Source: Chiloscyllium plagiosum
Lineage: Eukaryota
DNA: 64,000 bases
Reading direction: 5' to 3'
Assembly (NCBI RefSeq): GCF_004010195.1
Contig: NC_057719.1
Span: forward strand, 6,720,846-6,784,845
The position numbers and the translations under genes were made by a program. The notes beneath the pieces were generated by a model. It did not search any database and was not told the DNA's origin. It saw nothing but the letters and a program-made list of their open reading frames with translations. Positions 5,735 through 62,241 of the stretch are shown here, piece after piece (within the stretch, counting starts at the first letter, position 1; every line of letters begins with the position of its first letter).

Positions 5735-5956
5735 GGAGAAAGTGAGGACTGCAGATGCTGGAGATCAGAGCTGAAAATGTGTTGCTGGAAAAACACAGCA
5801 GGTCAGGCAGCATCCAAGGAGCAGGAGAATCGACGTTTCGGGCATAAGCCCTTCTTCAGGATTCCTGAAGAAGGGCTCATGCCCGAAACGTCAATTCTCC
5901 TGCTCCTTGGATGCTGCCTGACCTGCTGGGCTTTTCCAGCAACACATTTTCAGCTC
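5735..5956. mobile_element. Fold-back PLE family A insertion with two hammerhead motifs
   Basis: Inverted arms meet at about 5861-5863. Hammerhead cores at 5832-5859 (-) and 5865-5892 (+). Flanking direct repeat TTAACTCTACCTTTAA at 5719-5734 and 5957-5972. Confidence 0.9.
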
Positions 5957-6130
5957 TTAACTCTACCTTTAACAGTTACAAATTGTTGAATTTCTCAATG
6001 TCTTCCAGCTCTGAATAAAAGGTTTTGTCAACTCTGTTCCTGCATCTCTGCAGATGCCTCCTGACCTGCTGAGTTTTTCCAGTATCAGCAGCATAATGCT
6101 TTAGTGAAATTCATTCCTGTGTCATTGGCT

Positions 6131-6270
6131 TCCTTCTTCCTTTTCTCCCTCTCTCCTGTTGTCTGTCTCTCTCTCCCCCCTTTCTCTTTCTCTCTCCCCC
6201 CCCCTCTCTTTGTCTCTCTCTCTCCCCCTTTCTCCTTTTTCTCTCTCCTCTCTTTTTCTCACTCTTCTTT
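6131..6270. repeat. CT-rich low-complexity tract
   Basis: About 140 nt that is almost entirely C/T. Confidence 0.9.
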
Positions 6271-6279
6271 CATGTACTT

Positions 6280-6630
6280 TGCTCGCTAAATTGTTTAATT
6301 ACATTCAGTTAACTCTTCCATGCCTCCCCTATGGTTCATAATTAGTCCCTGAGAGAAGAGAAAATTACCTAACATACAGATGGCTTTTGTCAGGCAGAGG
6401 TGTATTCCTCAGCCGACTGGCTTAGTCTCATTTGCAGGCACCAAACAGAGTGAATGTTGTAATTAGCCCATTACCACTGCACTTGAAACAGCAACTGCAG
6501 ATACTGTAATAAGAGCAATTGGCATCCCCCAGGAAACTGATGCACTCGGCAGTTGCAACCAGAGAGCGCCAACGGCTATTCTGTGGAGCAGAGGTGCTCC
6601 TTTGCTTGCAATTCCTGACTGGAAACCAAA
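6280..6630. promoter_or_regulatory. Candidate conserved non-coding element (enhancer-like)
   Basis: Unique sequence with several TAAT/ATTA homeodomain cores and a CAGATG E-box; no resemblance to the window's repeats. Conservation not tested. Confidence 0.4.
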
Positions 6631-6720
6631 AGCGAAGTACTAAGGGCTGCTGGGGTCTTTAATTACACAGGAAGTGCTGCAGACAAATTTGGCAGGTCTG
6701 TTAGCGTCTGTAGAGAGAGA

Positions 6721-6922
6721 TGATTTGGAGGAGCCGGTGTTGGACTGGGGTGTACAAAGTTAAAAATCACACAACACCAGGTTATAGTCCAACAGGTTTA
6801 ATTGGAAGCACTAGCACTAGTAATAATACAACAACCACCTGATGAAGGAGCGTCGCTCCGACAGCTAGTGCTTCCAGTTAAACCTGTTGGACCATAACCT
6901 GGTGTTGTGTGATTTTTAACTT
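6721..6922. mobile_element. Fold-back PLE family B insertion nested in an older PLE family C remnant
   Basis: Inverted AAAGTTAAAAATCACACAACACCAGG... arms. Hammerhead at 6839-6867 has GACA in place of GAAA. Direct repeat TGTAGAGAGAGA at 6709-6720 and 6923-6934. Confidence 0.85.
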
Positions 6923-7039
6923 TGTAGAGAGAGAAGCAGAGTTAATATTTCAATTCCAGTATGACTTAGAATAGTGAGGTACTTGGTCTTGACTCAATGG
7001 GCCGAAGAGTCTTTTTCTGTGCGGGTGACCTCTGTGACT

Positions 7040-7490
7040 CTTTCTTTGTTTCTGAAGGGAGAAGTGATGATTTTTGTGTGCAAAACAGAGGTGAGCAGGA
7101 GCAAGTGGAATAAAAGGCGAGGTCAGAGCAAGGTTACAAGGCGAAGGAGATTGAAGATCACAGATGTGATAGCAAAAAAGGAAAAAGGAGGGTGGTGAAA
7201 CACTGGTACACTGCAGCAGGCCGAGGACACCAATTGAGCATGAGGGCAAGATGGTGCATTAAAATGTCCAGTAACCCCAAAGAGCTGGGTCATGGGCAAG
7301 GACTTAGTGGAATGTTCTGCAAGGTGGACATCCATTTGAGGAGACTGCATTGTGAGCAAAGAATACAGAGGACTGAATTGAAACAAAACGTAGATTTTTC
7401 TGCTCCTTGGATGCTGCATGACCTGTTGTCCTTTTCCAGCACCACTCTAGTATTGACATTAATCTCCAGCATCTGCAGTCCTCACCTTAA
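7040..7490 (-). mobile_element. Decayed PLE with GIY-YIG endonuclease remnant
   Basis: Minus-strand frames give CFNSVLCILCSQCSLL and HLAEHS...VTGHFNAPSCPHAQL, the typical PLE GIY-YIG region. A + strand pLTR tail abuts at about 7385-7490. Confidence 0.6.
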
Positions 7491-8074
7491 CCCCCTGAAT
7501 TGAAAAAAAGCCCAAGTAAATGGCTGTTTCACTTGGAAGGAGTATTTAGGATCTTGGACATGAGAAGGGCGGAGGCAATAAAACAATGTAATTGCGTGTG
7601 AAGGTGCCAAGAGGGTAGAGTGACTGGAAATCAGTGTTTTCTTTTTAAAACCACCACCCAGTCACCCATTTCTACAACTCCAGGTCCAAAGGCTTGATTT
7701 CAGTATTCTCATCCTCATGCTGAAAACCTTCCATGTGTGAGGGATGATGCATTGGGTAGCACTCTCACCTCTGAACCAGAAGATCTGCTTTCAGGTTTCA
7801 TGACCTGTGGCAGATCATTATCATGCCACAGACTTGAGACTGACATCTCAGCTGTCACTCTCAATGCGGTACCATGGGAGTCCTGCACTGTTACGGGATA
7901 CTGGCACAAGTTTGCAGTTCAGGTTTGAAAATTGCAGATAATGAGACATCAAACCAATCTGTCCCATTTGTCCTCTAAAGTGAACATTAGGATTACCAAG
8001 GAACTACGTCAAAGAAGATCAGAAGAGTTCTCCATACTTTGCTGAACAATACTTATCTCTGACTTATTCCCCTC

Positions 8075-8720
8075 TCCAGAGGTTTGAGTGCAATATTCCC
8101 ACGTTTTCAGATGACACACAGTCAGCTGGGAGGCTGAGTTATGAGGAAAATACAAAGAGGCCCCAAATGGATTTAGACAGGCAGAGTGAATGCATAAAAA
8201 ATTGGCAAATGCAATACAATGTGGAGAAATGTAAAGTTATCCACTTTGGTAGGAAAAAAGAGTACATAAAACATTTCTTAAATGATGACAGGCTGAAAAG
8301 TGATGAACTGCAGAGATACGTGTCCTTATGAGTCATGGAAAGTTAACATGCAGTTACAGCAAGCAATCAGGAAGGCAAGTGCTCCGATGGCCTTTATTAC
8401 AAGAGATTTGAGTATGTCATGTTGTGATTATATAGAGCCTTGCTGAGTATTGTGTGTAGTTTTGGTCTTCTCACCTGGGGAGGCACTTGCCATTGAGAGA
8501 GTGCACCAGAAACTCACAAAATTAATCCCTGGAATTCCTGGTTAAATAGATTGGGCCTCTATTTAAGAGGAGCTTAGACGAGTAAGAAGTTATTTCATTC
8601 AAACATACAGGATTCTAATGGAGATCAATAGAGTTGGTGCAGGAAGGATGTCTCCCCTTGGGGGTGGCAAGGTTGGATATGGAGCCAGGACACAAAGTCC
8701 CAGAATAAGAGGCAGGTCAC
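8075..8720 (+). mobile_element. Old CR1 RT fragment
   Basis: Degenerate FSDDT...WQMQYNVEKCKVIHFG motifs. Confidence 0.75.
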
Positions 8721-10185: not shown

Positions 10186-10285
10186 GGTTCTGAAGAAGGG
10201 TCACTGAACTTGAAACGCTAACTCTGCTTTCCCTGCACAGCTGCTGCTAGATCTGCTGAATTTCTCCAGAAATTTCTGTTTTTGT
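10186..10285 (+). mobile_element. PLE family C pLTR fragment with hammerhead motif
   Basis: GGTT-CTGAAGA-A-GGGTCACTGAACTT-GAAA-CGCT-AACT (10186-10223); GGTT/AACT can form stem I. Related copies at about 10680 and 49700. Confidence 0.65.
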
Positions 10286-12929: not shown

Positions 12930-13775
12930 AAGCGGTGGTCCAGTGGCATTGTTGCTGGACTGTTAACCCAGAGACCCAGATAATGTTCTAGGGACCAGGG
13001 TTCAAAGCCTGCTATGGCAGATGGTGGAATTTGAATTCAATAAAAGTCTCAAATTATGAGTCTAATGATGATCACAAATCCATTGCCAATTGTCGGAAAA
13101 ACCCATCTGGTTCACTGATTCCCTTTAGGGAAAGAAACAGCTGTCCCTACCTGGTGTGGCTTACATGTGACTCCACAGTAATATGGATCAGTGGTGCTGG
13201 AAGAGCACAGCAATTCAGGCAGCATCCGAGGACGGGCAAAATCGACGTTTCGGGCAAAAGCCCTTCATCAGGAATAAAGGCAGAGAGCCTGAAGCGTGGA
13301 GAGATAAGCTAGAGGAGTGTGGGGGTGGGGAGAGAGTAGCATCTTGCAAGGATGCCTGCCTTGAAGACGTTTTCCTCCTCTCTCTACAAGAATCTCAGGG
13401 AGTCTCTCTCCCACTGCAACTCCCAGGTCATTTCCTCAGCCCTGAAGCTCTTCAACCATGTCCTGAAACCAACTACTCTATGCTACTCTCTCCCCACCCC
13501 CACCCTCCTCTAGCTTATCTCTCCACGCTTCAGGCTCTCTGCCTTTATTCCTGATGAAGGGCTTTTGCCCGAAACGTCGATTTTGCCTGTCCTCGGATGC
13601 TGCCTGAATTGCTGTGCTCTTCCAGCACCACTGATCCAGAATCTGGTTTCCAGCATCTGCAGTCATTGTTTTTACCTCGTTTTTTCCACAGTAATATGGT
13701 TGACTCTAAACTGCCCTTGGAGTAATTAGGAATGGGCAATAAATGCTGGCTCTCTTCCATGGATGAATTAAAAAT
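12930..13775 (+). mobile_element. tRNA-derived SINE with L2-like tail, split by a PLE insertion
   Basis: A-box-like TGGTCCAGTGG and B-box-like GGTTCAAAGCC; the body continues after 13699. Confidence 0.75.
13187..13684. mobile_element. Fold-back PLE family A' insertion with two intact hammerhead cores
   Basis: About 159-bp inverted arms (13184-13342 and 13480-13638). Cores at 13244-13271 (-) and 13551-13578 (+). TSD TCCACAGTAATATGG at 13172-13186 and 13685-13699. Confidence 0.9.
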
Positions 13776-23490: not shown

Positions 23491-24977
23491 TTTGTCACCT
23501 CCAGACTTGTCTTTTCCAATGCATGGATGGTCTCCACATTCTACCCTTTGTAAATCTGTGGTCATCTGAAGCATTGCTGCCTTTGTCATGCCTCATATCA
23601 TATCCCATTCTTCTATGAGCCTTGTGCTTACTGACTTGTACTGGGGTCGGGGAGTCCAGAACTAGAGGGCATAGGTTTAGGGTGAGAGGGGAAAGATATA
23701 AAACCTAAGGGGCAACTTTTTCACACAGAGGGTGGTGCGTGTATGGAATGAGTTGCCAGAGGAAGTGGTGGAGGCTGGTACAATTACAACATTTAAAAGG
23801 CATCTGGATAGGTATATGAGTAGGAAGGATTAGAGTCTTGAGGCCAAGTGCTGGCAAATGGGACTAAGCTAGTTTAGGATATCTGGTCAGCATGGACAAT
23901 TTGGACCAAGGTGTCTGTTTCCATGCTGTATATTTCTATGAGGCTAAGAGAGTTCTTTCAGAGTCCAATAATTTTCCCTTGGCATTTAATCTGCTTGGAT
24001 CATTTATTTCCACCAATTTGGAGGGATTGGGGCTGGGTATTGATGGGGTTGGGGGACTAGGATGGCATGACAAGAATCCATTGACCCCATCAAACCAAAA
24101 CATCTTTTGGATTGAGGAGCAGGAGATCAAAGTTGAAACTTTATTGCTGGAACAGCACAGCAGGTCAGGCAGCATCCAGGGAACAGGAGATTCGTTTCGG
24201 GGGGCACAGGTGCAGGTCAGGAAGGCGGTGCCGGGCTGGAGGGATTCGGCTGAGACAAGGTGGGGGGAGGGGGGATGGCACCAACATATCGCATATGACA
24301 GACCCTATCTGTCAAATGTCAGTCTTAGAACTAACACAGCAAGAGTGGTCCTTGCTAAACAGTTTGAGAATAAGCCCAGGGCCCCTGGTACAGTCAATGT
24401 CCATCCTTGGAGCCTCAGTACAAACTCTTTGTACACCTGTGGAGGGACACAAACAATGTTGCACATTTACTGAAGAGTGTCCCCTCTACTAGCAAAATGG
24501 CTGACCAATCACCTTCAACTCCGCAAACGAGGGGTTGGACAATCCAAAGGTGTTAAATGCAGTGTTACTGGCTTTATTAATGGGGGCATTGAGTACAAAA
24601 AGGTGACGCTGATCTTGTGTAAAACAACTGGTTAGGTCTCAGCTGAAGTATTGTGACAGTTGTGAGCACCACATTAAATGAAATGACGCCACATTGGATA
24701 TAGTGCAGAAGTGATTCACAAGATGGCTCAGGGAATGAGAAACCTCACCCATGGGAACAGATTGAAAACACTGGGACTATTCTCCTTGGAGGCTGAGAGG
24801 AGAACTGATAGAGGATTTCAAAATCATCAGTGGTCTAGACAGTGGAGATTGGGATAAATTGTTCCATAAAAGAAACACGAATGAGAGGGCATCAATTTAA
24901 AGGGATCTGCAAATCAAGCAAGGGTGATGTGAGAATAAATTTTAGTTAGGACCTGGAATGCACTGCCTGGAAATAAT

Positions 24978-25475
24978 GATATGGAGGAGCCGGTGTGAAC
25001 TGGGATGGACAAAGTTAAAAATCACACAACACTAGATTATAGTCCAACAGGTTTATTTGGAAGCACTAGCTTTCGTAGGACTACTTCCTCAGGTGGTTGT
25101 GGAGCATAAGAACATAAAACACAGAATTTATAACAAAACATTATGGTCTCTGGATCAGTGGTGCTGGAAGAGCACAGCAGTTCAGGCAGCATCTAACGAG
25201 CAACGAAATCGACGTTTCGGGCAAAAGCCCTTCATCAGGAATAAAGGCAGTGAGCCTGAAGTGTGGAGAGATAAGCTAGAGGAGGGTGGGGGTGGGGAGA
25301 AAGTAGCATAGAGTACAATGCGTGAGTGGGGGAGGAGATGAAGGTGATAGGTCAGGGAGGAGAGGGTGGAGTGGATAGGTGGAAAAGGAGATAGGCAGGT
25401 CTGGTTTCTGCAGCATCTGCAGTCATTGTTTTTGCCTCCAAAACATCAAAGTGTCATGCAACTGAAATGATCCAG
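24978..25475 (-). mobile_element. PLE family B fragment with a nested family A' fragment (about 25150-25437)
   Basis: Family B terminus at 24978. The nested piece has an intact minus-strand hammerhead core at 25211-25238. Confidence 0.8.
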
Positions 25476-37410: not shown

Positions 37411-39939
37411 TTTAAAATTACCAAGGTCCCATAAACAGCAAAGATATTGATAACAAGATCAAAGTGACAAAACAAGTTTTAGCGATGTTACTTCAGTGAT
37501 AAATATTTGCCAGTTTACTTTGCCATTGATATGTTAACGCTAATATTAGATCTCTTATTAATCTTCAGGACCCAAAGGAATACAAAGCTCATCTATGCAA
37601 ACATTCCTTAGAATTTAATGCTCTTAGATCTAATTTAGCACTGTGACCCCAGAAAGGTCAGTGTATCCCTTCTGAAGAGATATTTCTTCTCTCTGAAAGG
37701 GTCATTCGACTGTTGGGTTCTCATTTCCAAAGAGCGGTGGAGGATGGGACTTCAAATTTATTCAATACTGAGTTGGATAGATATTTGATAGTCATGGGTT
37801 ATGGGGGGGGCATACAGGAAAGTGGAGTTCAGACTGCAACTAGATCTCAGTCATGACCTTATCGAACGGTGGAACAGGTTTAAAAGGCTCAATAGCCTTC
37901 TCCTGCTCCTCAGTCCTATACCCCACAAGATGCAGTGTCTTGGATAGAAGGCTGTGTTCCGGGTAGAGTCTAACTCTGTACAGTGGAAGTATGATTTCCC
38001 CATTTTTGGCTTTGAATTTTAAAAAAGTAAATTTTAAGATCACCTAGGGATTAAGTGAGAGTTTAACGATGAGCCTCATTGAAACAATGATCATTAGCTG
38101 TTTACCAAATCTGAGGTGTCATTTTGTTAACCTGTGCTTGGAATTTTAAGTCCCCTATTCATTTGCTCGAAATTTACCGAATTTCAATTTAATACCTCAT
38201 TGTTAGTGATTTTCTCCAAATTTGTTTAGATTTTTTTTAAGAGTTCCAATTCTCCCACTCAATATTTGAAATAAAATCAAGAGAACTAATCCAGGTAATA
38301 TTATCATCTCCGATCACACTCCAGTGTATCTGTTGGTTAAGATTAAGGGGCTAGAGTGGGCCCGAAGCACTGGCGAATGGATCCCTTTATTCTTAAGGAT
38401 GATAATTTTGTGGAGTATTTCTCTAAGGAATTTCAGCCGTCCCTAGCCATTAATTCAGGCTCGGTTAGTAGCCCATCCGTCCTTTGGTAAACTGTCAAAG
38501 CCTACGCCGGAGGTTAGTTATCTCCTACTCTGCCAGTAGGAACCGGCAGAAGGGCAAACAGCAACGTCTCCTTGAAGCACGGTTGAAGATAGCCGAGAAG
38601 ACTTACTTTGACTGGCTCTCATTGGCCAAGCTGAAGAGGATTACGGCGCTGCGGTCTGCATAGAATTCCATGCTCACGCAGACAGCAAAGAAGGAGCTTA
38701 CTTTCACAGAACAAAAGTTATATGAGCATGGTGACAAACTGGGTAAGTACCTAGCGTATCTCACCAGGAAAAGGAGTGCACCTCAAGCCATTGTGTAAAT
38801 TAGGGAAGGATCTGGGAACCTATCATGTGATTCCAAAAAGATTAATGTGGCATTCCAGAGATTTTACTCTGAATTATACCAGTCTGAAGGTTATGAGGAG
38901 GGGTGGGCCAAGATGGAGTCCTTTTTCGAGGATCTGGAGCTCCCAGGTGTGACCCCCAAACAAGAGTATTTTCTCAATGTCCCCTTATCAGAACAAGAGG
39001 TGGAGGAGGCTGTGAAGCAGCTTCAGAGTGGAAAGGGGCTCAGTCCTGATGGACTTCCCAGAGAATTCGATAAGGAATTTATGAGCATATTGTCAGGTCC
39101 GATGCACAACATGTTCAATGACTCATACAGCCTTGATCATCTCTACGAGAGGCCAATATTTCACTTATTGGGAAGGTCCTGGAGAATGTGCTTCTTACAG
39201 GCCCATTTCACACTTAAATGTTGATTTTAAAATCCTCTCTAAGACTCTTGCATTAAGGTTGGAAACTGTGTTATCTTCTGTTGTTAAAGAGGACCAGATG
39301 GGCTTCATAAAGGGCCGCAGATCCTCCAATAATGTTAGGAGACAGCTTAATGTAATTCAAGCTTGTCAACAACAGTCAATACAGGGATTGGTGATTTCTG
39401 TAGGTGCAGAGAAGGTATTTGACTGAATTGAGTGGCAGCACCATTTTTATATTCTAGAGTGGTTTGGCTTGGGCGAAGCCTTTATAAGATGGGTAAAGGT
39501 TCTCTACAGTGACCCTGTCACTGCGGTCATCATCAATGGGGTGCGATCGAGCAATTTTAACATTTCTTGGTGCAGCTGACAGGGCTGTCCCCTTTCGCCT
39601 TTGTTTTTTACATTGGGATTGAACCGTTGGTGGAGGCCATTCATTGGGATCCCGGTTTATCGGCTCCAGAAGTGGGGTCAAATTTACATAAGATTTCGTT
39701 GTTTGCAGACAATGTCCTCATTTTTTTGTCAAACCCAGCGGTTTCGGTGCCTTGCCTGATACAATGCATCAGCGCGTTTGGCACCTTTTCAGGGTATAGG
39801 ATGAGTTTTGCAAAATCAGAGGCTATCCCTATGGGTGGTCTTACGAAGGTGCTAGGTCTTGAGAGCGAATCTCGATTCCCATTTAAGTGGTCCCGGTGGG
39901 GTTTTATGTGTTTGGGCATATTTATCACTCCAGTTCTTG

Positions 39940-40098
39940 CTATAAATTCTGTGTCTTACAATTGTGTACTCCACAACCACCTGATGAAGGAGCAGCGCTC
40001 TGAAAGCTAGTGCTTCCAATTAAACCTGTTGGACTGTAACCTGGTGTTGTGTCATTTTTAACTTTGTACACCCCAGTCCAACACCGGCATCTCCAAAT
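39940..40098 (+). mobile_element. PLE family B pLTR inserted in the L1
   Basis: CAC-CTGATGA-A-GGAGC-AGC-GCTCT-GAAA-GCTA-GTG at 39978-40012. TSD CAGTTCTTG at 39931-39939 and 40099-40107. Confidence 0.85.
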
Positions 40099-41553
40099 CA
40101 GTTCTTGATCGGTTGTTTAAAGCCAATTTTGTTCAATTTTTCGACAAAATCAAACAAGACCTTCAAAGATGGGAGGGCACTTCTGATCTCATGGTTAGGT
40201 CGGACAGCTCTTATTATTATGAATATTTTCCCCCATTTTGTTTTACCCTATACAGAAGCTCCCCCTGATTTTCGATAAGCAAACGTTCAGGAGACTAAAC
40301 AGCTGGTTCATCTCTTTTACTTGGCATCGTAAGTGGCCCCTTATTAAATTAGCTAAACTGCAACTGCCTCACAGATTGGGGGTGGGGGGGAGGTGGGTCT
40401 CCCGGACATTAAAAACTATCAACTAAGCTCGCTTTTATCTTATGTGAGTGATCGGGTTTGTGGGGATCCTCTTCCAACATAGTTAGATATGGAAACCTCT
40501 CAGGCAGGGTGACCCCTTGCTCGCTTGCTGTTTTTGGACGAAGTGAGGACAGTTAAGGAATATTGCCATAATCCAATAGTTATCAATACACTTAACGTAT
40601 GGGGGGGCAATTCGGCAGAGAGAAGGCAATATTGGCAAAACATCTTTTCTTGCACCTATAGTTTCTTACACCTGTAGTGGGTATGCCGGGTTTTCATATG
40701 GGGATGATGGATTCAGGATTCAAACATTGGGCAGCTAGGGGTGTGTCTTGCATGGGTGATTTATTTGGGGGGGACATAATGATGTCTTTTGATGAATTAG
40801 CGCAGAAATGTGAACTATCTAGCAGGGACCGCTTTCATTTTTTTTCCAAGTTAGGAATTTTATTCAAAAAAAGACTACACTTTAGACCGATCCCTACAAT
40901 TCCAACGTAGAGAGGAGGGTGCTCAGTGCTAAGAGTATACTTTCTGTTCGCACTTTATATCATCAACTGGGGTGGGGGTTGGCCCTCAGATGACTTTGAT
41001 CGGCTTTGCAGGGTGTGGGAGAGAGAGCTAGGTGTTGAGGTCACCTCAGAGGCATGGGAGATATTTGGGAAAATGCAAGAAAGATATCAGTTGAAGATTA
41101 TCCACAGGGTCCACTTGGCTCCGGATCGTTTGTCAAAATTTAAACCAGGGATATCTTCAACATGCCCCGAGTGAAGAGTTAGTATGGGCACTCTTACCCA
41201 TTGTCTCTGGTACTGTGGTAAGCTTCAAACATACTGGAGCGCTGTGGTGGGTGCAATGGAGGGGATTTTGGGTGTAAGGGTGAAGGACCCAATTTCTCTT
41301 CTTCTTGGCCTGCCCAGTGTATTCCCTGTGGATGTGCATAAGAAAAACTTTTCAGCATCCTCACTTTCTGCGCAAGAAAGCATATTTTGTTAGTTTGGGT
41401 GTCCGAAAATCCCCTGGGCCTGTTGGGTTGCCATAAGATTCTTATGGAGCATATCCCCCTTGGATTTTCTTACAAGTATGGTACACCACAAAACTGAGAA
41501 TTTCTATAAGACATGGCAGCCCTTTTTGGATTACCTGGACACACATTTATCTG

Positions 41554-41752
41554 AGGAACAGGAGAATCGACGTTTCGGGCATAAGCCCTTCTTCAGGAAT
41601 CGGCAGCATCCAAGGAACAGGAGAATCGATGTTTCGGGCATAAGCCCTTCTTCAGGAATCCTGAAGAAGGGCTTATGCCCGAAACGTCGATTCTCCTGTT
41701 CCTTGGATGCTGCCTAACCTGCTGAGCTTAATTCCAGCAACACATTTTCAGC
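41554..41752. mobile_element. PLE family A insertion with three hammerhead motifs (two tandem on -, one on +)
   Basis: Cores at 41569-41596(-), 41628-41655(-) and 41661-41688(+). TSD ACA(C/G)ATTTATCTG at 41541-41553 and 41753-41765. Confidence 0.9.
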
Positions 41753-43124
41753 ACAGATTTATCTGCCACACTAATAAGGGCTTTTATATAGCTGGAACGA
41801 TTGTGCTTTATAAGTCCAATATCCAGTGAAGGGGAACTGCGAACGTATGAATAGGTGAAAATGAATGCTCTCGATATTCGAGTGTTAGTGTTTTGTTTGC
41901 TGCACTGTAATATAATTATTTATTAGTTTGTTGTTAGTTATTATTTATTTAGTTAAGTAGTTAATTGATTTTTAAAATATATTTTATATATATTTGCTCA
42001 TGAGGGCGGTTTAGGTTTTAAATTTTTTTGTATTCTTTCTTGGTATTGTTTTGAATTGTGTTGTTTTGTATTTGTTGTGTTATTAAAAAATCTGTTTTCA
42101 ATAAAAATATATTTTAAGAGAAGATACTGTATGTAACACTAAATATTGTTATTGGAAGTGAGAAGGCAATTTATTGACTGATGTCTTCGGTTACCCTGGG
42201 ATACTGGAGGGAGGAAAGACAGATAAGACAGGAAGGGTAACTCGAACAAAATTGGCTTGAACATTGACTTGCTGTTTTGATGTGTCTAAACATTAAAGTT
42301 TTAATTGACCACTCTTTGACAGTAACAGACTGTGCTTCAGGGCTTTAATTGCTATCATTTGGCTTTGGAATTGGTGGGATAAAGAGGAGCCTGCGGATAC
42401 AAATGGCTATGCTTCAGTCATTGGCAACAAGCTACCTCACAGCAGGTTGGAACAGTTAAGAGCATGACATAAGGACAATACGTTTTTTTGCCACTGGTCT
42501 GCAACTTGTAAAGAAAAGGACCATTGTCATTTGGACCTGCTGGAAGATTTGGAGTCTGGAGGATTCAGCATCATAGTTTAAAAAACACTGAGTCGTTTTG
42601 ACATCCAGATCTTGTCCCAAAAGGATCAACTCCATGCCTAACCCCTCGAGATCGAGGCAAGCTGGAGGTAGAATTGGGTGTGTGTATGCAAAAATTTCAA
42701 TTTGACTTGTATGTTGCTGGTTGCGAAGCAAAATATGACTCTTTTTGCACCTAGCCACAACCAGAACACTTTAAAGTTATTATTGTTTTTAGAAGGTAGA
42801 ATTTTTTTTAGGAATATTGGTCTTGACAGACAACCAGCGGAATTCTTAAACCTGCCATTGAGACACCCACAACAGCAGTGCATTGCTAACTCTCCCTCTA
42901 ATTGTTCTTTCTTCTTGTTGGGTGAACATTGACACATCAAACCTGAGGATCAGGGCAGAACAGGTGAGCTAATAACTCATGCAGTTATACCCAAATGTTT
43001 AGGAAGTATAGCATTTTTGGGTGTTAAGTCATCACTCAGTTAGTACGAGCCCCACCTGTGTGTCAGACGGTTATGGGCTCAGGTCCACTCCAGACACTTG
43101 AGCACACAATCTAAACTGACCTTC

Positions 43125-48314: not shown

Positions 48315-48866
48315 GATTTGGAGGGGCCAGTGTGGTACTGGGGTGTACAAAGTTAAAAATCACACAATGCCAGGTTATAGTCCAGCAGGTTTTTTAAAAC
48401 ACTAGCTTTCAGAGCACTGCTCCTTCATCAGGTGGTTGTGGAGTATAAGATTGTAAGACACAGAATTTATAGCAAAAGTTTACAGTTTGATGCAACTGAA
48501 ATTATGTGATTTTCAAAACCTGCATGAATCCATATAAACCTCTGTAAAACTATACAGAGGGTTTGTCAGTCTGACATCGCATTGGGACACAGACAGACTT
48601 TAGACCTGTTGTTTAAAAAGCTGAGTTATCTTGGGAATGTAATTTAAAAGAAGTTCTGGGAATTACATATCAAAGTACAGAAACTGGCATATCCCATTAT
48701 AAAAGATGAAAGTTTTAATCCAAGATTGTTTACTGTATCACGTCTCCATGACACTGGACTCCTTTAGCTATAAATTCTGTGAGCATGATCTTAACCCCCA
48801 CAACCACCTGATGAAGGAGCGCCGCTCTGAAAGCTTCCAAATAAACCTGGCGTTGTGTGATTTTTA
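48315..48866. mobile_element. Fold-back PLE family B insertion
   Basis: Minus arm at about 48315-48505; plus arm to 48866 with a hammerhead from 48808. TSD ACTGAATTCAA(T/C)CAG at 48300-48314 and 48867-48881. Confidence 0.85.
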
Positions 48867-49790: not shown

Positions 49791-50310
49791 CAAATGGTAG
49801 TTTTAAAATTAAACCACTGCTTAAACAGGAGCCAGGATAGGTTAAAGGAATTCGTGTGGTATACGAAATGGCAACAAGTGTTTTGGATGACTTCAAGTTT
49901 ATGGAGGGCAGAATGTGGGAGGCCAGCCGAGACTGCATTTGAAAAGTCACGTCTGAAGGTAACAAAAGATCAAAAGAATCAGAAAATTCCAAACTAAAAG
50001 CAAATAACTGTCAACAGATAACTCTGAGTACAGGTAACTCAAAGGTTCACAGATTATCACCTCGGCATTAATTTCTTTTCACTTCAGCCACTTACAATCT
50101 GGCTGCAATAACTGCTATTAGACTAACTACAGGCTGCATACCAGCACTTCACGATATGGCTCTAAAACAGAATAACCTGCCTGCAACCCATTCCAAAACT
50201 CAATGGCCAATCTTCACGTTAGTTTAGTGCCACTGCAATCAGATGAATGCAAAACGTGCAAACATTAATACTGGGATAGCAGGGCACAGGTGACCTAGCA
50301 ACAATATACT

Positions 50311-51800
50311 TAGAGGTGCCGGTGTTGGACTGCATGGACAAAGTTAAAAATCACACAACTCCAGGTTATAGTCTGACAGGTTTAATTGGAAGCACTAGCA
50401 TTTGGAGCGTTGCTCCTTCATCAGGTGGTTGTGGGGGTTAAGATCATGCTCACAGAATGTATAGCCAAAGGAGTCCAGTGTCAGGGAGATGTGACACAGG
50501 AAACAATCTTAGATTAAAACTTACATCTTTTAGAATGGGATATGCTGGTTTCTGTACTTTGATATATGAATCTCAGAACTTCTTTTAAATTACATTCCCA
50601 AGATAGCTCAGCTTTATAAACAACAGGTGTGAAGTCTGTCTGTGTCCCAATGCGATGTCAGACTGACAAACCCTCTGTATAGTTTTACAGAGTTTTACAT
50701 GGATTCATGCAGCTTTTGAGCAAAATAAAACGCAATTCTTCAAAAACAAATTCACCCCATAAGCTGCTGTGTGTGCGCATGTAGGAGCAACAGATTGAGC
50801 GTGCATGTGAGTGTGTGGGTGTGGGTGTGAGTGCACATGATGGTGTGGGTGTATTTTTGTGTATGTGTAAGCTTGGTTAAGTGTGTGTGAGTGTGATGGG
50901 GTATGTGTGAGAGGGTGCGTGTTTTGGTGTGATTGCAGGGGGTGTATGGGTGTGCACATGAGAGAGAGCCTGTGTTTGAGGGAGGGTCTGCGAGGGTGTG
51001 TGAATATGCAGGACAACAACAGTGGGACAAAACCATACAACCCTGCCACAGCAGCTGCTGCAAGACATGTCAGAGTATCAACACAGATAACACCATTACA
51101 TGTGGGGACACCTCCCACCATGTTCACTGTAGGTACTCATGTGACTTGGCCAATGTGGTCTATCTCATACACTGCAGGCAAGGATGCCCTGAGGGATGGT
51201 AGGTTGGTGAGACTGAGCAGACGCTACGACAATGGATGAATGGACACCGCACAACAATCACCAAAAAGGGTGTTCCCTCCCAGTCGGGGAACGTTTCAGC
51301 GGTCTGGGACATTTGGCTTTGGACCTTTGGGCGGACTTCAGGACAAGCGACAGCGCAGACTGGCCGAGCAGAGGCCGATAGCAAATTTCGGTACCTATGG
51401 GAATGGCCTCAACCAGGACCTTGGGTTCATGTCACATTACAAGTGACACCACAGCACGATACACTCTCTCTCACACACACATACACTCCTACATATCACG
51501 CAGACCCTCCCTCACACGCAAGCTCTTTCTCATATGCACACACCAACACATGCACCCTCTCACACATGCCCCATCACACTCACACACACACTTACCTAAG
51601 CTTACACACACACATACATACAAAGTTAAAAATCACACAACACCAGGTTGTAGTCCAACAGGTTTAATTCGAAGCACTAGCTTTCGGAGCGCTGCTCCTT
51701 CATCAGATGATTGTGGAGTATAAGATTGTAAGACACAGAATTTATAGCAAAAATTTACAGTGTGACGTAACTGAAATGATATATTGAAAAAGACCTGGAT
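50311..51800. mobile_element. PLE family B composite with coding remnant and inverted pLTRs
   Basis: Minus pLTR plus TG-rich 3' region (50311-50990), plus-strand ORF end and CA-rich tail (51010-51620), and a second minus pLTR with an intact hammerhead at 51678-51706. Confidence 0.85.
51020..51446 (+). pseudogene. GIY-YIG endonuclease domain of a Penelope-like element
   Basis: PCHSSCCKTC...YSCDLANVVYLIHCRQGCPEGW*VGETEQTLRQWMNGHR ... RRLAEQRPIANFGTYGNGLNQDLGFMSHYK*; premature stop and frameshifts. Confidence 0.9.
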
Positions 51801-53368: not shown

Positions 53369-54382
53369 GCTGGCAAAGTGGAGAATGTTCACTAGGATGA
53401 TCCCTGGAATGGAGGGACTGTCTTCTGAGCAAAGGCTAAACTGGTTGGGGCTTCACTCATTGGAACTGAGGAGGATGAGAGGAGATCTAGTTGAAACATG
53501 CAGGATTCTTAAGGGGCTTGACAGGGTAAATGCTGAGGTAAAAACCGGACCATATCTGCCTATCTTCTTTCCCACCTATCCACTCCACCCTCCTCCCTGA
53601 CTTATCACATTCATCCCCTCCCCCACTCACCTATTGTACTCGATGCTACTTTCTCCCCATCCCCACCCTCCTCTCATTTATCTCTCCACCCTTCAGGCTC
53701 TCTGCCTGTATTCCTGATGAAGGGCTTTTGCCCGAAACATCGATTTTACTGCTCCTCGGATGCTGCCTGAACTGCTGTGCTTTTCCAGCACCACTCTACT
53801 CCAGGGTAAATGCTGAGAGGATGTTCCCCCTCATGAGAGAGTCCAGGACAGAGGGCATGGCCTCAGAATTAAAAGGCACCAATTTCAGATTGAGATGAGG
53901 AGGAATTTCTTCTCTCAGAGGGTTGAGAGTCTTTGGAACTCCTTGCCGTAGAGATCTGTGGGGGCAGATATACATTTATGTTTTATTTTATATATATTTA
54001 AGGCTGAGGTAGATAGATTCTCGGTCAATTGGTGAATCAAGAGTTATAGGGAAATTGGTGGAAAGTGGGTCTGAGGAATGTCAGATTGGCCATGATCCTA
54101 TGATGGAGCAGGGTTAAAGGACTGAATAGCCTACTCCTGTTCCCATTTATTATGGTCCTATGATCTTATTCACCCTCATTGTACACTGTTGGGCATACCT
54201 CCAGATTGCTGAGACTGCACTGGCCTGGTTGACAATCTTGGACTACTATCGGCAGGGTCTGTGGTTGTGGCCTCCAATGCCCGTCCTTGGGAGTAGTCAT
54301 CCTGCCTCTGCATCACCTCAAAAGCAACATCTCCAAGTCCCCGGCCACAGAGCGGAGCCCTATGTTCCCGCGCGTCTGCCAT
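53369..54382 (-). pseudogene. Decayed Myb/SANT-like exon of a PIF/Harbinger-type transposon, split by a CR1 (about 53387-54162)
   Basis: MADAREHRAP / GDLEMLL / EVMQRQD / *SKIVNQASAVSAIWRYAQQCTMRVN, resuming after the CR1 as ILHFAS and followed by donor GTAAGT (53363-53368, -). Confidence 0.55.
53387..54162 (+). mobile_element. CR1 3' fragment with nested PLE family A' (53538-53801)
   Basis: FTRMIPGMEGL...LRRMRGDLVET. The nested piece has TSD CAGGGTAAATGCTGAG (53522-53537 and 53802-53817) and a hammerhead at 53714-53741. Confidence 0.9.
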
Positions 54383-56529
54383 TTCTGGGCAAATGTCATG
54401 ATCTGTGCAGGACAGCTCCAGAGTAACGATGCTTGTCCAGGTGCACATGGCCTTTTAAAGATATGACAGCCCCACTGATTTAGGTCCATTCTGGGATATC
54501 TGGGCGGTGGCAAATTCTCCCAGCGACAGCCAGTGGTACAGTCGGACCAGCATCAGATGAGAGGAGCATCACAGCAGCAGGCTAGTGAATTAACGAGATG
54601 ACTTTAGATTGATAGTACAGGGAAATTTGCTCAGCCTCCTTGTGAGAAACCCTCCATGAAACGCAATGAAATCCAGACAGCTAAAAATATGTAGGTTTTA
54701 GCCCTATAAAGACATGCAACTTGGCATGAATGTCCAGGCCAATATATTTCCCTTGATGGACATACCTAAACTTATTATTGTTTAGTTATTACTTTGATGT
54801 TTGTGGGTGCCCCCTACTCGATGTAAATTAGCTGCTGTGTTTTCTGTATCACAACAGTGAATACTCTTTTTAAAAAGAGCTTATTAAATTGGCTGCAAAG
54901 CTCCTTTGGGGCATCCTGGTGTATTGAAAGGTGCTTTATAAATGTAAGACTTATCTTTCTCTCCATGAGCTCTCTAAGGAGGTTGCTTTTTGCATAAAGT
55001 GAGCATTATGGAAAGAGAGTAACCCAGTATGCTCACATCACAGTAGGGGGCCTTCAGACAGAAATCAGGAACAGAAACCCCGAATGAAATTTCTGTTCCC
55101 AGGCTCAGTGAGATGAAAGAGGAAAGAAAGGTAACTAACACACCTGTAGGACCTTCCAATTTGTTTAGCAGACTCGATACAAAGGCGACTAATTTTACTG
55201 GAATACTTGGTGACCAGGACTGAATTACTGTAGATGTGATACAGTTTTAACAGTAAACAACATTTTTCACATCACCTTGAAAAAAGTCACTGTGCTCACG
55301 AAATGTATGAGTCAGTCTCTGAGAGTTGCATTATGTGTGTTGCCACAATGTCCACTTAATTACTAGTCTGTGGAAGCATTGTTTACAGCATTTAATCAAA
55401 TGCTTCATTAAGACTGGTTTACAGAATCTGAATCTCTTCTTCTGTATTGTCTTTGATCTCAATACTCCAACCATGAGCTCTATCAGCAAATGTTAATTAA
55501 AAGTGCAGTTAGATGAGACACTGTTGAAAAACAAAACATTTTATGTTCAGCCTACTCTGTAGAGATGAATAGTGTTATCACAGATAGGTGGAGTTATTCA
55601 ATTTGTCACGTGTATGCTGACACTAAAAGCTGAATCAATAAAAGAGTCCTAAAGGCATATTCAAAATGCATATCTTCCCTGGGAATAAATCTGCAGAACC
55701 TCATTCCAGTGTCAAGTCTACAAAATAAATTATATCTCTCAACTATGTTGGTTGGTGAGGAATTGGAATAATTTTCAGCAATATGCTGGTGCCCATTTTT
55801 CAGTAAATCAATTGAGAAAATGCTGACTGTTACGAAGGAAAATAGATTTAAGTGATAGATTTGGAGATGCCGGTGTTGGACTGGGTGTACAGAGTTAAAA
55901 ATCACACAACACCAGGTTATAGTGTTGTTTAACTGGAAGCACTAGCTTTCGGAGTGCTGTTCCTTCATCAATTGTAAGACACTGAATTTATGGCAAAAGT
56001 TTACAGTGTGATGTAACTGAAATTATACATTTAAGTGTGATAGATTTAAGTGTGAAATCTAGTTAAACTCCTAGTTTAAACAATAACACATACACACACA
56101 GGCACTCCTATACACACACACACACACATACACACAGACACCCCTATACACAGACACGCACAGACACTCACACACACTGCTACAGACACACACACTCCCA
56201 CATGCACCCTGTCTCAGACTTAGACCCCTTTTCACTCACACATATACACTCTCTCACAGACACTCACAACCCCCCACCCCAAACACACTCACACACACAT
56301 GTACACATACACACGTACACATACGTTTGTGGGGTGAATTTGTACTTGCAGAGTTACATTGTACTTTGTGCAAAAACTGCATGAATCCATGTAAGACTCT
56401 GTTTACTTATTTTTTAGATTAGAATCAGTTTAAACATTATGGGACAGACAACAGAACACAGGGTATAAACAATGACTGCAGATGCTGGAAACCAGATTCT
56501 GGATTAGTGGTGCTGGAAGAGCAGCTGAG

Positions 56530-56756
56530 CTGAAAGTTTGGAACTAGGGTGAGGTGAGGGAAGGGGAAATGAGGAAACTGTTGAAGTCTACATTGATTCC
56601 CTGGGGTTGAAGTGTTCCGAGGCGGAAGTTGAGGCGTTCTTCCTCCAGGCATCTGGTGGTGAGGGAGCGGCGGTGAAGGAGGCCCAGGACCTCCATGTCC
56701 TCGGCAGAGTGGGAGGGGGAATTGAAATGTTGGGCCACAGGGCGGTGTGGTTGATT
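56530..56756 (-). pseudogene. C-terminal GIY-YIG region of a second PLE family
   Basis: ORF 56544-56765(-): PVAQHFNSPSHSAEDMEVLGL...RCLEEERLNFRLGTLQPQGINVDF. Confidence 0.85.
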
Positions 56757-56905: not shown

Positions 56906-57107
56906 TTAAAAATCACACAACACCAGGTTATAGTCCAACAGGTTTAATTGGAAGCACACTAGCTTTTGGAGCGACGCTCCTTCATCAGGTGATGAAGGAG
57001 CGTCGCTCCAAAAGCTAGTGTGCTTCCAATTAAACCTGTTGGACTCTAACCTGGTGTTGTGTGATTTTTAACTCTGTACACCCCAGTCCAACACCGGCAT
57101 CTCCGAA
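56906..57107. repeat. Near-perfect palindrome (82-bp arms, 2-nt spacer) formed by a PLE family B insertion
   Basis: 56906-56987 versus 56990-57071 with one mismatch seen. TSD TCATTCTAACAGAT at 56892-56905 and 57108-57121. Confidence 0.9.
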
Positions 57108-58720: not shown

Positions 58721-58779
58721 CTACAATGAAAAGTACTGTTTTGCGTGCTAACCAGACAAATCATGCTCCACATGAGTAT

Positions 58780-58931
58780 GTATCGACGTTTCGGGCATAA
58801 GCCCTTCTTCCTGAAGAAGGGCTTATGCCCGAAACGTCGATTCTCCTGTTCCCTGGATGCTGCCTGACCTGCTGCGCTTTTCCAGCAACACATTTTCAGC
58901 TCTGATCTCCAGCATCTGCTGACCTCACTTT
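58780..58931 (+). mobile_element. PLE family A insertion with a short inverted head and intact hammerhead
   Basis: Core at 58811-58838, with an inverted copy of about 28 nt immediately upstream. TSD CTCCACATGAGTAT at 58766-58779 and 58932-58945. Confidence 0.9.
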
Positions 58932-58945
58932 CTCCACATGAGTAT

Positions 58946-59297: not shown

Positions 59298-59299
59298 TA

Positions 59300-59520
59300 C
59301 AGGTACACAATCCTTTATCCAAAATCCTTGGGGCCAGTTGTTTTTCAGAATTTGGAATTTGGAATAAATGACATTTTCACATCTGAATGACATGGTCTGA
59401 GTGGGTGTGGAGTTGGGTCACCTGTTTGCATGCCAAATGACACTCCATACTCTATGAAATAAATTTCGGATTTTGGAGCTTTACAGATTTCGGAATTTCA
59501 GATAAAGGATTGTGTACCTC
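59300..59520. mobile_element. Tc1/mariner-pogo (Tigger-like) MITE
   Basis: TIRs CAGGTACACAATCCTTTATC and GATAAAGGATTGTGTACCTC (19/20 match), with TA at 59298-59299 and 59521-59522. Confidence 0.85.
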
Positions 59521-59714
59521 TATCAGGAATTTATCCTCCACCGAATTAGTGCTGACCTAATTAACCCAGTCTATGTGCAAATTTAAGTCACCCATTATAA
59601 CAGTTTTACCCATGCAACATGCACTTCCAATTTCCTAATTTATGGTGTGCTGAAAATTAGTTTTATGGTTTGATATTCTTTAAACAACTCTCACCAATGT
59701 TTGCTTCCACTTAA

Positions 59715-60360
59715 AGTCATAGAGTCATAGAGATGTGCAGCATGGAAACAGACCCTTCAATCCAAATTGTCCATGCCGACCAAATATCCCAACTTTGGAA
59801 AATATTAAGATTGATAAGTCCCCAGGGCCAGGCCAGATTTATCCTAGGCTGCTCCAGGAAGCGAGAAAGGAGGTTGCTAAGCCGCTGGTGAGGATCTTTG
59901 CCTCCTCACTCTCCACGGGAGTCGTACCGGAGGATTGGAGGGAGGCAAATGTTGTTCCACTTCTCAAGAAGGGTAATAGGGAAATCCCTGGCAATTACAG
60001 ACCAGTCAGTCTCTTGTCTGTCGTCAGCAAAGTTGTGGAAAGAATTCTGAGGGATAGGATTTATGACTATTTGGCAAAGCATAGTGTGATTAAAGGCAGT
60101 CAGCATGGCTTTGTGAGGGGCAGGTCATGCCTCACAAATCTTATTGAGTTCTTTGAGGAGGTGTCAAGACAGGTCGATGATGGTCGAGCAGTGGATGTGG
60201 TAAATGGATTTCAACAAGGCATTTGATAGGGTTCCCCATGGTAGGCTCATTCATAAAGTTTTCCCTGGGATGGGGGAGTCCAGAACTAGAGGGCATAGGC
60301 TTAGGGTGAGAGGGGAAAGATATAAAAGGGACCCAAGGGGCAACTTTTGCACGCAGAGGT
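59715..60360 (+). mobile_element. Mosaic of CR1 fragments (RT piece plus 3' pieces)
   Basis: ORF 59735-60226: KSPGPGQIYPRLL...NYRPVSL...QHGFVRGRSCLTNLIEFFE. An inverted tail piece lies at about 59715-59793. Confidence 0.9.
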
Positions 60361-61218
60361 CTCTGCCTGTACTTATAGGCAGTGAGTTGAAGATTCCCAT
60401 CACCCTCTGGATGAAAATTGTTTTCTCATATTTGATGCTTGCCATTGCTTTTTCGTGCTTCTATTTTTGATGACTTCTTTCCTTTTTTTTTACCAGTTAT
60501 GCTTTTCTCGAATCTGACCTTTCTCTTATATTCCCAGCCCCCTTGCCAATCTAGTTTTAAATCCACCTTAACAGCAGTAACAAATCTCCCTGTGAGGATA
60601 ATTGTCCTGATTCTGATAGGCACTGCAAAGTAGGAAACCAATCTGTGAGTGAGACTATCTCGGGGAACTTGACCACCACCTCCTTGGTTTTTTTGGAACA
60701 CCTGGAGGTCACTCACTCCTTATCTGCCCACCCAACTTTCAGTCATGGTGTGACTTGTTCCCCAAACATGCTATCTATGTAGTCCCCTGCCTCAACGATG
60801 CACAACACCGCCTCCTACTGTGGCTTGAGTTCCAAATCCAGGAGCTCACATTGTGCAGCTGCTGACACTTCCTACAGATGTGTTAATCCCAGACACATGG
60901 TACGTCCACGGCTTTCCAGATTCTATAGGCCGTACATTCCACTTGCCAGGCTGCTCTGCCATGTAGTAACTATACTGACTATTTATTACAAGTGGAATAG
61001 CCAACCAGCTCCTCCTGCTGTACCAAAGTAGGAGCCAAATATTGGACAGTGAAGAAAACAGGTTAAAATAAAATTAAAACAAAAGCACGTCTTCCTCACT
61101 TCACCTGCCTCACCACTCATCAGACTCACTTGATTTATTGCAAACAATGCTGATTCAGCTAGAGTTTCATAGATTATGAACAAAAGGTTCAAAAACAACT
61201 CCCTTTCATGAAAGCTTG

Positions 61219-61264
61219 CTCTCACTCTCTCTCTCTCACTCTCTCTCTCTCTCTCACACACACA
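61219..61264. repeat. (CT)n(CA)n microsatellite
   Basis: Direct observation. Confidence 0.85.
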
Positions 61265-62112
61265 TAAATCTCTAAGCCTTGGGAAAAAAAAAAGCCTCAT
61301 CAAGCGTTATCTTAAAAATACTTTGGCTAAATATTAGTTAAATTCATCCATGCTGGTCTGTTGCTGAAATTACTTTGCACACAAGCTGTCCTGGATCAGT
61401 TATGATTGGCTGCATCAACTCTTCTGCAGACAGTGGTATAGATTTGTATCTTCTTCAATAATGTTCGAAAGTAATATTTGCGAAAACATATCTTCACAAC
61501 TGTCTGAACATTTTGGGTTCATGTGCCACTCAAAGACTTGAGCACACAATCCAGACTACACTCCCAATGCAGTCATGAGGTATATTGCACTGTTGAATTT
61601 GATTTCTTTTGTGTGTGATTTTAAGTGGATGCCCTTTCTGTCCTCTCAAGGCAATGTGAAAGATCCATAGCATGAATTTGAAGAAGAATAGCAAGTTTTT
61701 TTTAAATAGGGAGATTTTCCTTGGTATTTTGGTCAATATTTATTCCTCAATCAACACCTAAAACGAATTATCTGATCAGTAGAGTCTTGCTGTAGACATA
61801 TTGGCCACTGAATTTTTCATCATCTACACATCAGGAAGTTCTTCATTGATGATAAAGGTTTGTAGAATATACTTTGCAATGTTCTTTTCCCCCCAGGCAA
61901 GATATGGAGCATGAAAGGGAGACAGGTAGCAGAAAAATTTGAAGTGATTTAAACTGCGTCCTGTATTGTTTTTATTTGGTGTAAGTAGATTTAAATTGAA
62001 CTCTGCATTGTCCAAGGGTAGTTTACACATTATTGAACCAGGAGCGTTAACATGTTTCTGACCGTCTTGAAGGCTATTAAAACCATGAGCTACATCTCTG
62101 CCAGGACTCTGG

Positions 62113-62241
62113 CATTCCTGAAGAAGGGCTTATGCCCGAAACGTCGATTCTCCTGTTCCTTGGATGCTGCCTGACCTGCTGCGCTTTTCCAGCAACACAT
62201 TTTCAGCTCTGATCTCCAGCATCTGCAGTCCTCACTTTCTC
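62113..62241 (+). mobile_element. Solo PLE family A pLTR with intact hammerhead core
   Basis: Core at 62118-62145. CATTCCTGA is duplicated at 62113-62121 and 62242-62250. Confidence 0.9.

What the first reader, a model, noticed from the sequence alone, without database searches (positions are those of the whole stretch)
5832..62145. At least three PLE families carry minimal hammerhead ribozyme motifs, with more than a dozen recognisable copies in 64 kb
Seen: family A/A' is CTGA(A/T)GA-A-GGGC-NNNN-GCCC-GAAA-CGTC, with intact cores at 5832(-), 5865(+), 13244(-), 13551(+), 25211(-), 41569(-), 41661(+), 58811(+) and 62118(+). Family B is CAC-CTGATGA-A-GGAGC-NNN-GCTCC-GAAA-GCTA-GTG (39981+, 51678-). 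Family C is GGTT-CTGAAGA-A-GGGTC..-GAAA-CG.T-AACT (10190+). The families differ in flanking sequence but keep the core, an extra A after A9, a compensatory stem II and a 4-nt palindrome (ACGU or AGCU) in place of stem III. The motif lies on the same strand as, and downstream of, the GIY-YIG ORFs. Known: PLEs carry minimal type I hammerheads thought to act as dimers. Inference: this genome holds a very large population of short, non-coding, ribozyme-bearing PLE derivatives. Stem I is weak in family A (about 2-3 bp), so activity is uncertain.
Basis: partly seen in the sequence, partly recalled or inferred. Interest (0 to 1): 0.72.

Follow-up and report, generated by a model that had tools for sequence, protein, structure and literature searches.

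The report
Penelope hammerheads with fossil cutting record
These short repeats are end-pieces of Penelope-type jumping genes carrying an already described tiny self-cutting-RNA motif; most copies were likely made from uncut RNA, but nine copies elsewhere in the genome are joined to the small RNA U6 exactly at the predicted cut, which likely records these ribozymes cutting in living cells.

Summary
Observation real. The window has 18 hammerhead-shaped motifs (controls 0-2); the genome has 79,576 exact A/A' cores, 17,799 B and 133 C. They match the minimal type I hammerheads of Penelope-like element (PLE) end repeats (Cervera and de la Pena 2014). A-type and B cores lie downstream of Neptune-type GIY-YIG frames in other loci, not in the window; family C has no ORF link. 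Stem I and the palindrome covary across families. Copies look like end-stubs of coding PLEs, not a separate non-coding family: 3' ends fall at two sites 30-40 nt apart, 5' ends peak about 4 nt before the core (33 of 99 A-type) and not at the cut (3 of 99), so most likely copy uncut, capped RNA. Nine independent U6 snRNA copies, each with exactly five T, join at the predicted cut; none joins at the common upstream end. This likely records cleavage to a 5'-OH followed by RtcB-type ligation. RNA reads showed no end pile-up. Earlier notes of this scan reported the U6 joints and start-site stubs on other DNA of this genome; I re-tested both. Known kind, with indirect evidence on an open question.

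The parts
5735..5963 (.). Family A fold-back pair: minus arm with core 5859-5832, plus arm with core 5865-5892 (first stem I pair broken); both arms begin 2-4 nt before the core
10186..10280 (+). Family C copy, degenerate core 10190-10219 (imperfect stem II, U16.1 lost)
13184..13667 (.). Family A' inverted pair: cores 13271-13244 (-) and 13551-13578 (+); 13344-13480 matches the start of the A' ORF as seen in L153
25149..25402 (-). Family A' end with about 190 nt upstream of the cut; core 25238-25211
24977..25138 (-). Family B copy with variant stem II (GTAG/CTAC); core starts at 25092
34069..34155 (-). A-type stub beginning at -32 from the cut; core 34150-34123 (U at position 17)
39934..40100 (+). 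Family B end; core 39981-40009, predicted cut after GAAAGCUA
41549..41758 (.). Family A cluster: natural head-to-tail pair on the minus strand (cores 41655-41628 with ACAU, and 41596-41569, 59 nt apart, one extra G at the joint) folded back on a plus copy (core 41661-41688)
48315..48508 (-). Family B end; core starts at 48431
50310..50960 (-). Long family B arm: CA-rich tract, 3' untranslated part, degenerate core at 50424-50396
51026..51443 (+). Broken family B GIY-YIG endonuclease fragment with CX4CxxC linker (Neptune type), head-to-head with the long minus arm
51619..51790 (-). Family B end; core 51706-51678, antisense to the neighbouring GIY-YIG fragment
53568..53795 (+). A-type end; core 53714-53741 (ACAU in place of ACGU)
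56471..56756 (-). Family A' GIY-YIG C-terminal fragment joined to the element's 3' end with the hammerhead part deleted
58777..58936 (+). Family A fold-back stub; core 58811-58838
62113..62243 (+). Family A stub, -33 to +98 around the predicted cut after 62145; core starts at 62118

Best explanation
The motifs are minimal type I hammerheads in the end repeats of several coding Penelope-like retrotransposon families; most short copies are likely run-off DNA copies of the uncut, probably capped front of the element's RNA, and a minority of the RNA is likely cut by the ribozyme in germ-line cells and then likely ligated to U6. Steps. (1) Shown: the core lies 190-280 nt (A-type) or 450-800 nt (B) behind a GIY-YIG frame on the same strand; in A' the ORF starts about 135 nt behind the cut. 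(2) Inferred: transcription starts about 4 nt before the core, at the A of a YYANWYY initiator-like word, so that the 5' strand of stem I is the first bases of the RNA. (3) Shown: copies end at two 3' sites about 35 nt apart; inferred from the Anolis element: these are internal start sites of reverse transcription. (4) Inferred: starting there on the 5' repeat, the enzyme runs off the capped end after 90-130 nt; the cDNA end often folds back on itself, giving the inverted pairs; longer copies come from the 3' repeat. (5) Inferred: sometimes two motifs pair through the ACGU or AGCU palindrome, or the element's protein helps folding, and the RNA is cut after GUC or CUA, leaving a 5'-OH. (6) Shown: U6 with five T is joined at that bond in nine insertions; inferred: an RtcB-type ligase joined U6 (2',3'-cyclic phosphate) to the 5'-OH and the PLE enzyme copied the chimera.
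For: Position behind GIY-YIG frames; RT+EN frame for B in L096/L097: (RVT_1 E 6.9e-6, below Pfam's cut-off). Covariation at positions outside the family patterns: pair 2.1-1.1 C-G (A, A', B), U-A (C), A-U (D); 2.2-1.2 U-A, A-U, C-G; palindrome CG versus GC. 5' ends: 33 of 99 A-type copies at -33..-28, 25 at -27..-3, 3 at -2..+2 (p 3e-10 for the peak; no excess at the cut, p 0.87). G against A before ATTCC: 1,582 against 545 in a genome with 29% A and 20% G. 3' ends near +62 and +97 (A) and +58 and +90 (B). U6: 6 of 6 matches (5 events) at the cut for A'-type within a window of about -12..+16, 2 of 2 for B, two more events (L029, L089); 0 PLE joints at upstream ends; all nine have five T, the mature U6 end that bears the cyclic phosphate (PMC6789731 passages); in 3 of 5 fold-back events examined (L155, L157, L159) the inverted arm copies across the U6 joint.
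Against: No cleavage was measured. One raw RNA run laid 2,173 reads on an A copy with no place where many molecules begin or end, and 92% ran on into other sequence (a poly(A) single-cell library, weak for this question). Monomers do not fold into the hammerhead: P(pair 2.1-1.1) 0.001-0.05. The largest family (A, CUGAAGA) gave no U6 joint and family C none. Two U6 copies are joined inside the PLE endonuclease frame (L041, L045) and about 15 of the 44 U6 matches read are joined to a SINE start, so other routes to U6 chimeras exist. In the 20 of 1,582 G-start loci read, the G belongs to a target duplication or a fold-back arm in about half. The start site is inferred from DNA ends only. Frangieh 2024 found no Anolis RNA reads ending at the cut and no need for the cut in vitro.
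Confidence: 0.72

Rival explanations
1. Same elements and same cut, but U6 was added by the reverse transcriptase jumping from the cut RNA end onto U6, with no RNA ligation.
For: U6 is also joined to SINE 5' starts, which an RtcB-type ligase should not accept (PMC6789731: a 5' triphosphate blocks ligation). L153 has a second joint within 2 nt of the cut, onto ORF sequence.
Against: No U6 joint at the far commoner upstream end; exactly five T in 9 of 9, whereas the SINE joints vary in T number.
Confidence: 0.13
2. The short copies form their own non-autonomous, SINE-like families that are transcribed from an internal promoter and moved by the PLE protein.
For: Stubs outnumber long copies in the sample (24 of 99 A-type reach beyond -40; 37 of 119 when gap-flanked copies are added); a stub re-transcribed from -32 would give the same product; non-autonomous PLE relatives are described.
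Against: Stub ends match those of GIY-YIG-linked copies; 5' ends and fold-back joints differ from copy to copy; no shared internal deletion or tandem array was seen.
Confidence: 0.1
3. The motif is a conserved protein-binding or promoter structure and not a working ribozyme; the RNA end at the 'cut' comes from a cellular nuclease or an RT pause.
For: Weak stem I, monomers misfold; low in vitro activity of minimal hammerheads; 8 of 9 Xenopus dimers inactive; cut dispensable for insertion in vitro.
Against: The joint falls on the hammerhead bond in families with different sequences at the site (GUC/GAUU and CUA/GUG), without microhomology in the A types and one base away from the nearby AG in B; the catalytic core is kept while the stems covary; the Anolis motif cuts with protein help and needs C3 and G8.
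Confidence: 0.05

Closest known systems
Minimal hammerheads (min-HHR) of metazoan PLE pseudo-LTRs (Cervera and de la Pena 2014, PMC4209133; parts 1-2 of 4 read, two supplement files searched)
   Same: Core, extra base after A9, G10.1-C11.1, palindrome in place of helix III, short helix I, consensus families, mostly solitary truncated copies, close pairs on opposite strands.
   Different: About ten times the largest counts given there (about 4,000 coelacanth, 9,000 Xenopus); stem II only 4-5 bp; 'shark' absent from the two supplement files searched; no start-site or U6 analysis in the parts read.
Poseidon element of Anolis, PAc (Frangieh et al. 2024, PMC11167929; parts 1-2 of 4 read)
   Same: Two internal RT start sites bounding a 30-40 nt tail; hammerhead near the start of the RNA; uncut RNA as the main template.
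   Different: The elements here have Neptune-type linkers; the A' ORF start lies behind the cut; here there is a DNA record of ends at the cut, which the authors did not find in RNA reads.
U6/LINE-1 chimeric pseudogenes formed by RtcB ligation (Moldovan et al. 2019, PMC6789731; passages read)
   Same: U6 ending in its U tract joined to a retroelement RNA and retrotransposed.
   Different: There the joint lies at varied places, made by unknown nucleases; here 9 of 11 U6-PLE joints seen fall on one predicted ribozyme bond.
Animal non-LTR retrozymes (bioRxiv 10.64898/2026.07.22.740005, parts 1-3 of 5 read; PMC7229834, search listing only)
   Same: Type I hammerhead, PLE-related, non-coding copies.
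   Different: Retrozymes are tandem arrays with a motif in each unit; the copies here are solitary or fold-back stubs, with one head-to-tail pair in the window.

Membership tests
PLE minimal type I hammerhead | CUGANGA and GAAA core around stem II with G10.1-C11.1 | tested here: met
   (part of the search descriptor, so not independent)
PLE minimal type I hammerhead | Extra base between A9 and 10.1 | tested here: met
   A in A, A', B, C and U in D; 40 of 41 motifs when the base was optional
PLE minimal type I hammerhead | Palindromic 15.1-16.1 and no helix III | tested here: met
   ACGU in A, A', C, D and AGCU in B
PLE minimal type I hammerhead | Short helix I with compensatory changes between families | tested here: met
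   3-4 bp, pairs differ by family (n = 57, 21, 8, 14, 3 copies)
PLE minimal type I hammerhead | Self-cleavage as a dimer or with protein help | not testable with these tools
   Only indirect: U6 joints; RNA lay inconclusive
Penelope-like element (EN+) | Motif in the end repeat behind an RT + GIY-YIG frame | tested here: met
   B: RT+EN in L096, L097. A', older A types and one CUGAAGA copy (L120): GIY-YIG part only, RT mostly hidden by assembly gaps
Penelope-like element (EN+) | Same link for family C | tested here: inconclusive
   0 of 13 C copies have a GIY-YIG frame upstream; all are short
Penelope-like element (EN+) | 30-40 nt optional tail and inverted 5'-truncated copies | tested here: met
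   Two 3' end clusters; inverted arm in 38 of 99 A-type and 23 of 58 B copies
Neptune clade | CX2-5CxxC linker plus CCHH in the endonuclease (PMC8557442 passages) | tested here: met
   B: CX4CxxC and CCHH; an A-type element in L096 has CX4CxxC, A' has CCHH
Neptune clade | Placement in an RT tree | not tested
   No tree was built; Nematis shares the linker
Non-LTR retrozyme | Tandem arrays with a hammerhead in each unit | tested here: not met
   One head-to-tail pair among 40 ends in the window; tandem arrays elsewhere in the genome were not searched
Rfam hammerhead families | Match to a covariance model | tested here: not met
   No hammerhead family among 16 hits at E<=1

The most novel reading that the evidence does not exclude
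PLE hammerheads are a switch at the very 5' end of the RNA: uncut capped RNA yields only dead-end stubs, while cutting removes the cap and hands a 5'-OH to the host ligase RtcB, which normally closes the unit-length RNA into a circle on which the internally primed RT can read through to make long copies. U6 chimeras are mis-ligations from that pathway, and a genome of this kind holds a countable, family-by-family fossil record of ribozyme activity in the germ line.
Probability: 0.25. Interest if true: 0.8.

Novelty: new member of a known kind. Interest (0 to 1): 0.5.

Why it matters
Whether the minimal hammerheads of animal PLEs cut in cells is open in the papers read: low activity in vitro (PMC4209133), function 'still unclear' (PMC8557442), no RNA ends at the cut and no need for it in vitro (PMC11167929). 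U6 joined at the exact bond in several families is indirect in vivo evidence and points to a host ligase, which can be tested directly. The 5' end map also suggests where the RNA starts and why the genome holds hundreds of thousands of 90-130 nt stubs. The motif itself is known.

Tried and rejected
Rfam scan: only hairpin-driven microRNA matches. Long 'open frames' of 1,000-2,200 aa were assembly gaps; no full-length element was recovered. Pfam found no family for the two window peptides or for L096. Idea that a start codon in loop II opens the main frame: loop position 4 is T in 55 of 58 A-type loops, but in family A that frame stops after 26 codons; it stays open only in A'; rejected as a general rule. 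A pile-up of plain 5' ends at the cut: not found. U6 joints for family C: 0 matches, but the family is old and the pattern strict. Second match (L195) is not U6. RNA: no listed holder is on record as RNA; run X22 laid 0 reads and X21 showed no end pile-up; contigs cannot show ends. Literature searches for Penelope+shark+retrotransposon+Neptune and hammerhead ribozyme+U6 snRNA+chimera+Penelope gave 0 papers; the library lacks most subscription papers, supplement file 1 of PMC4209133 could not be searched and the preprint's supplements are closed, so a shark count or a similar remark may stand there.
Full report
Observation. A descriptor asking for CUGANGA, an optional extra base, a stem of at least 4 bp and GAAA finds 18 motifs in the window against 0-2 in each of 20 second-order Markov controls, and 41 in 685 kb of 72 evenly spaced 10-kb stretches of the own genome against 2 in the reversed sequence. 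The window is thus about five times richer than that sample. Exact patterns give 79,576 A/A' cores, 17,799 B cores and 133 C cores in the 3.56-Gb assembly, with 0 in each reversed control. Scaling the sample gives roughly 200,000 intact-looking motifs and roughly 0.8 million element ends (157 ends in 685 kb); these are extrapolations. Rfam has no hammerhead match. The C copy at 10190 and the A copy at 5865 are damaged. Earlier notes of the scan call the genome a shark; I did not test that.

Link to PLEs. In the window the two GIY-YIG remnants do not show the claimed order: 51026-51443 (+) has the nearest core on the opposite strand, and 56550-56756 (-) has lost its core. In other loci the order holds: A-type cores mostly lie 190-280 nt behind the end of a GIY-YIG frame on the same strand in more than 25 loci (about half of them fetched through the A' peptide, so not a random set), one CUGAAGA core does so in L120, and B cores lie 450-800 nt behind the frame in four loci. 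L096 and L097 hold RT plus GIY-YIG frames of family B (RVT_1 E 6.9e-6, under the cut-off). The CX4CxxC linker and CCHH motif point to the Neptune type by the criteria of PMC8557442 (passages); no tree was built. None of 13 C copies reaches a coding frame; C is tied to A by similar 3' sequence only. No complete element was found, as long copies run into assembly gaps.

Structure. With families anchored on core and stem II (and, for A and A', on the first bases after the cut), the remaining positions still pair and covary between families: 2.1-1.1 is C-G in A, A' and B, U-A in C and A-U in a further family D; 2.2-1.2 is U-A, A-U or C-G; 2.3-1.3 is U.U in A and A' (U-A in one subfamily), C-G or U-A in B and G-C in C; the palindrome is ACGU or AGCU (57, 21, 8, 14 and 3 copies, not a random set). 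This is the signature described in PMC4209133 (parts 1-2). Single motifs do not fold into the active shape (P of pair 2.1-1.1 is 0.001-0.05), as expected for a motif that needs a partner or a protein.

Ends of the copies. In the 72 stretches, the window and its two neighbours, 134 A-type copies were aligned to a panel of real long copies; 15 with low score and 20 that touch a gap or a locus edge were dropped (13 of the 20 are long). Of the other 99, 33 begin at -33..-28 from the predicted cut, 25 at -27..-3 and 3 at -2..+2; the peak is significant (p 3e-10) and the cut shows no excess (p 0.87). B shows a broader cluster (19 of 58 at -40..-28). Position -32 is the A of CTCATTCC or TTTATTCC, which fits the YYANWYY initiator word (recalled), and is also where stem I pairing stops. 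Before ATTCC, G outnumbers A by 1,582 to 545 where the element has C, as a copied cap would give; but among the first 20 such loci the G lies in a target duplication or a fold-back arm in about half, so this is moderate support. 3' ends cluster near +62 and +97 (A), +63 and +98 (A') and +58 and +90 (B): the PLE tail, which PMC11167929 (parts 1-2) equates with two internal start sites of reverse transcription. An inverted arm precedes 38 of 99 A-type and 23 of 58 B copies. The simplest reading: short copies are run-off products from the uncut front of the coding RNA.

U6 record. Following earlier notes I tested U6 joints. A pattern allowing any joint from about -12 to +16 gave 6 matches, all at the cut (5 events, since two are arms of one insertion); the B pattern gave 2 of 2 at the cut. 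Reading 44 of the 48 Rfam U6 matches added two events (L029, L089) and showed two U6 copies joined inside the endonuclease frame and about 15 joined to a SINE start. So 9 of 11 U6-PLE joints seen are at the bond. Patterns covering upstream joints, including the common -32 end, gave no PLE joint (0; 1 match, the LINE-like joint of L033). All nine have exactly five T, the mature U6 end that carries a cyclic phosphate and that RtcB joins to a 5'-OH but poorly to a triphosphate (PMC6789731 passages). In L155, L157 and L159 the fold-back arm copies across the joint, so the chimera existed before the insertion was completed. Against this: the largest family A gave none, C none, and the SINE joints show that jumps onto U6 occur. 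One raw RNA run gave 2,173 reads on an A copy, on both strands, mostly running on into other sequence, with no pile-up of ends.

Mechanism and verdict. Shown: motif, number, PLE context for A-type and B, covariation, end maps, U6 joints. Inferred: start site and cap, internal priming, cleavage, ligase. The part that bears on an open question is the U6 record, which my two searches did not find in print but which this scan has noted before in this and other genomes; the control at the upstream end and the five-T count are my tests here. Interest 0.5.

Noticed in passing
L153 (G000:C1, about 38,727,600-38,728,285, minus): U6 joined at the cut, then about 530 nt of A' sequence running into the ORF start, then a second joint within 2 nt of the cut and the tail: two cut-site 5' ends in one insertion.
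   Followed up: partly
L034, L035, L039, L044, L047, L049, L050, L051, L079, L080 and others: About 15 of 44 U6 matches are followed directly by the 5' start of a tRNA-type SINE, with a varying number of T: a second route to U6 chimeras, probably template jumping.
   Followed up: no
L142:4926-4960 (+), L111, L057: A further hammerhead family (D) with U as the extra base, a 6-bp stem II and its own stem I; not seen in the window.
   Followed up: partly
window 41549-41659 (-); run X7 contig joint: Head-to-tail pair joined at +26 with one extra G before ATTCC; the same joint appears in a contig of a public run. A natural dimer for assays, though the first copy has ACAU.
   Followed up: partly
genome-wide: The most numerous family (A, CUGAAGA) has no U6 joint while the rarer CUGAUGA types have several; families may differ in cutting rate.
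   Followed up: partly
window 56935-57043: Perfect family B fold-back hairpin; such hairpins give the spurious microRNA matches in Rfam and could make double-stranded RNA if transcribed.
   Followed up: no
window 62113-62121 and 62244-62251: The bases after this stub repeat its first eight bases (ATTCCTGA), so the target site shared microhomology with the 5' end and that end is uncertain by about 9 nt.
   Followed up: no
L030, L032, L088: U6 followed by a tRNA-like sequence (L030), and U6 preceded by what looks like a 5S rRNA 3' end and followed by LINE-like sequence (L032); labels recalled, not tested.
   Followed up: no
window 43260-45540, 59723-60223, 63000-63482, 38799-40007: Broken LINE reverse transcriptase and endonuclease fragments (CR1/L2-like and L1/Tx1-like by recalled motifs) make up the other long frames of the window.
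   Followed up: no
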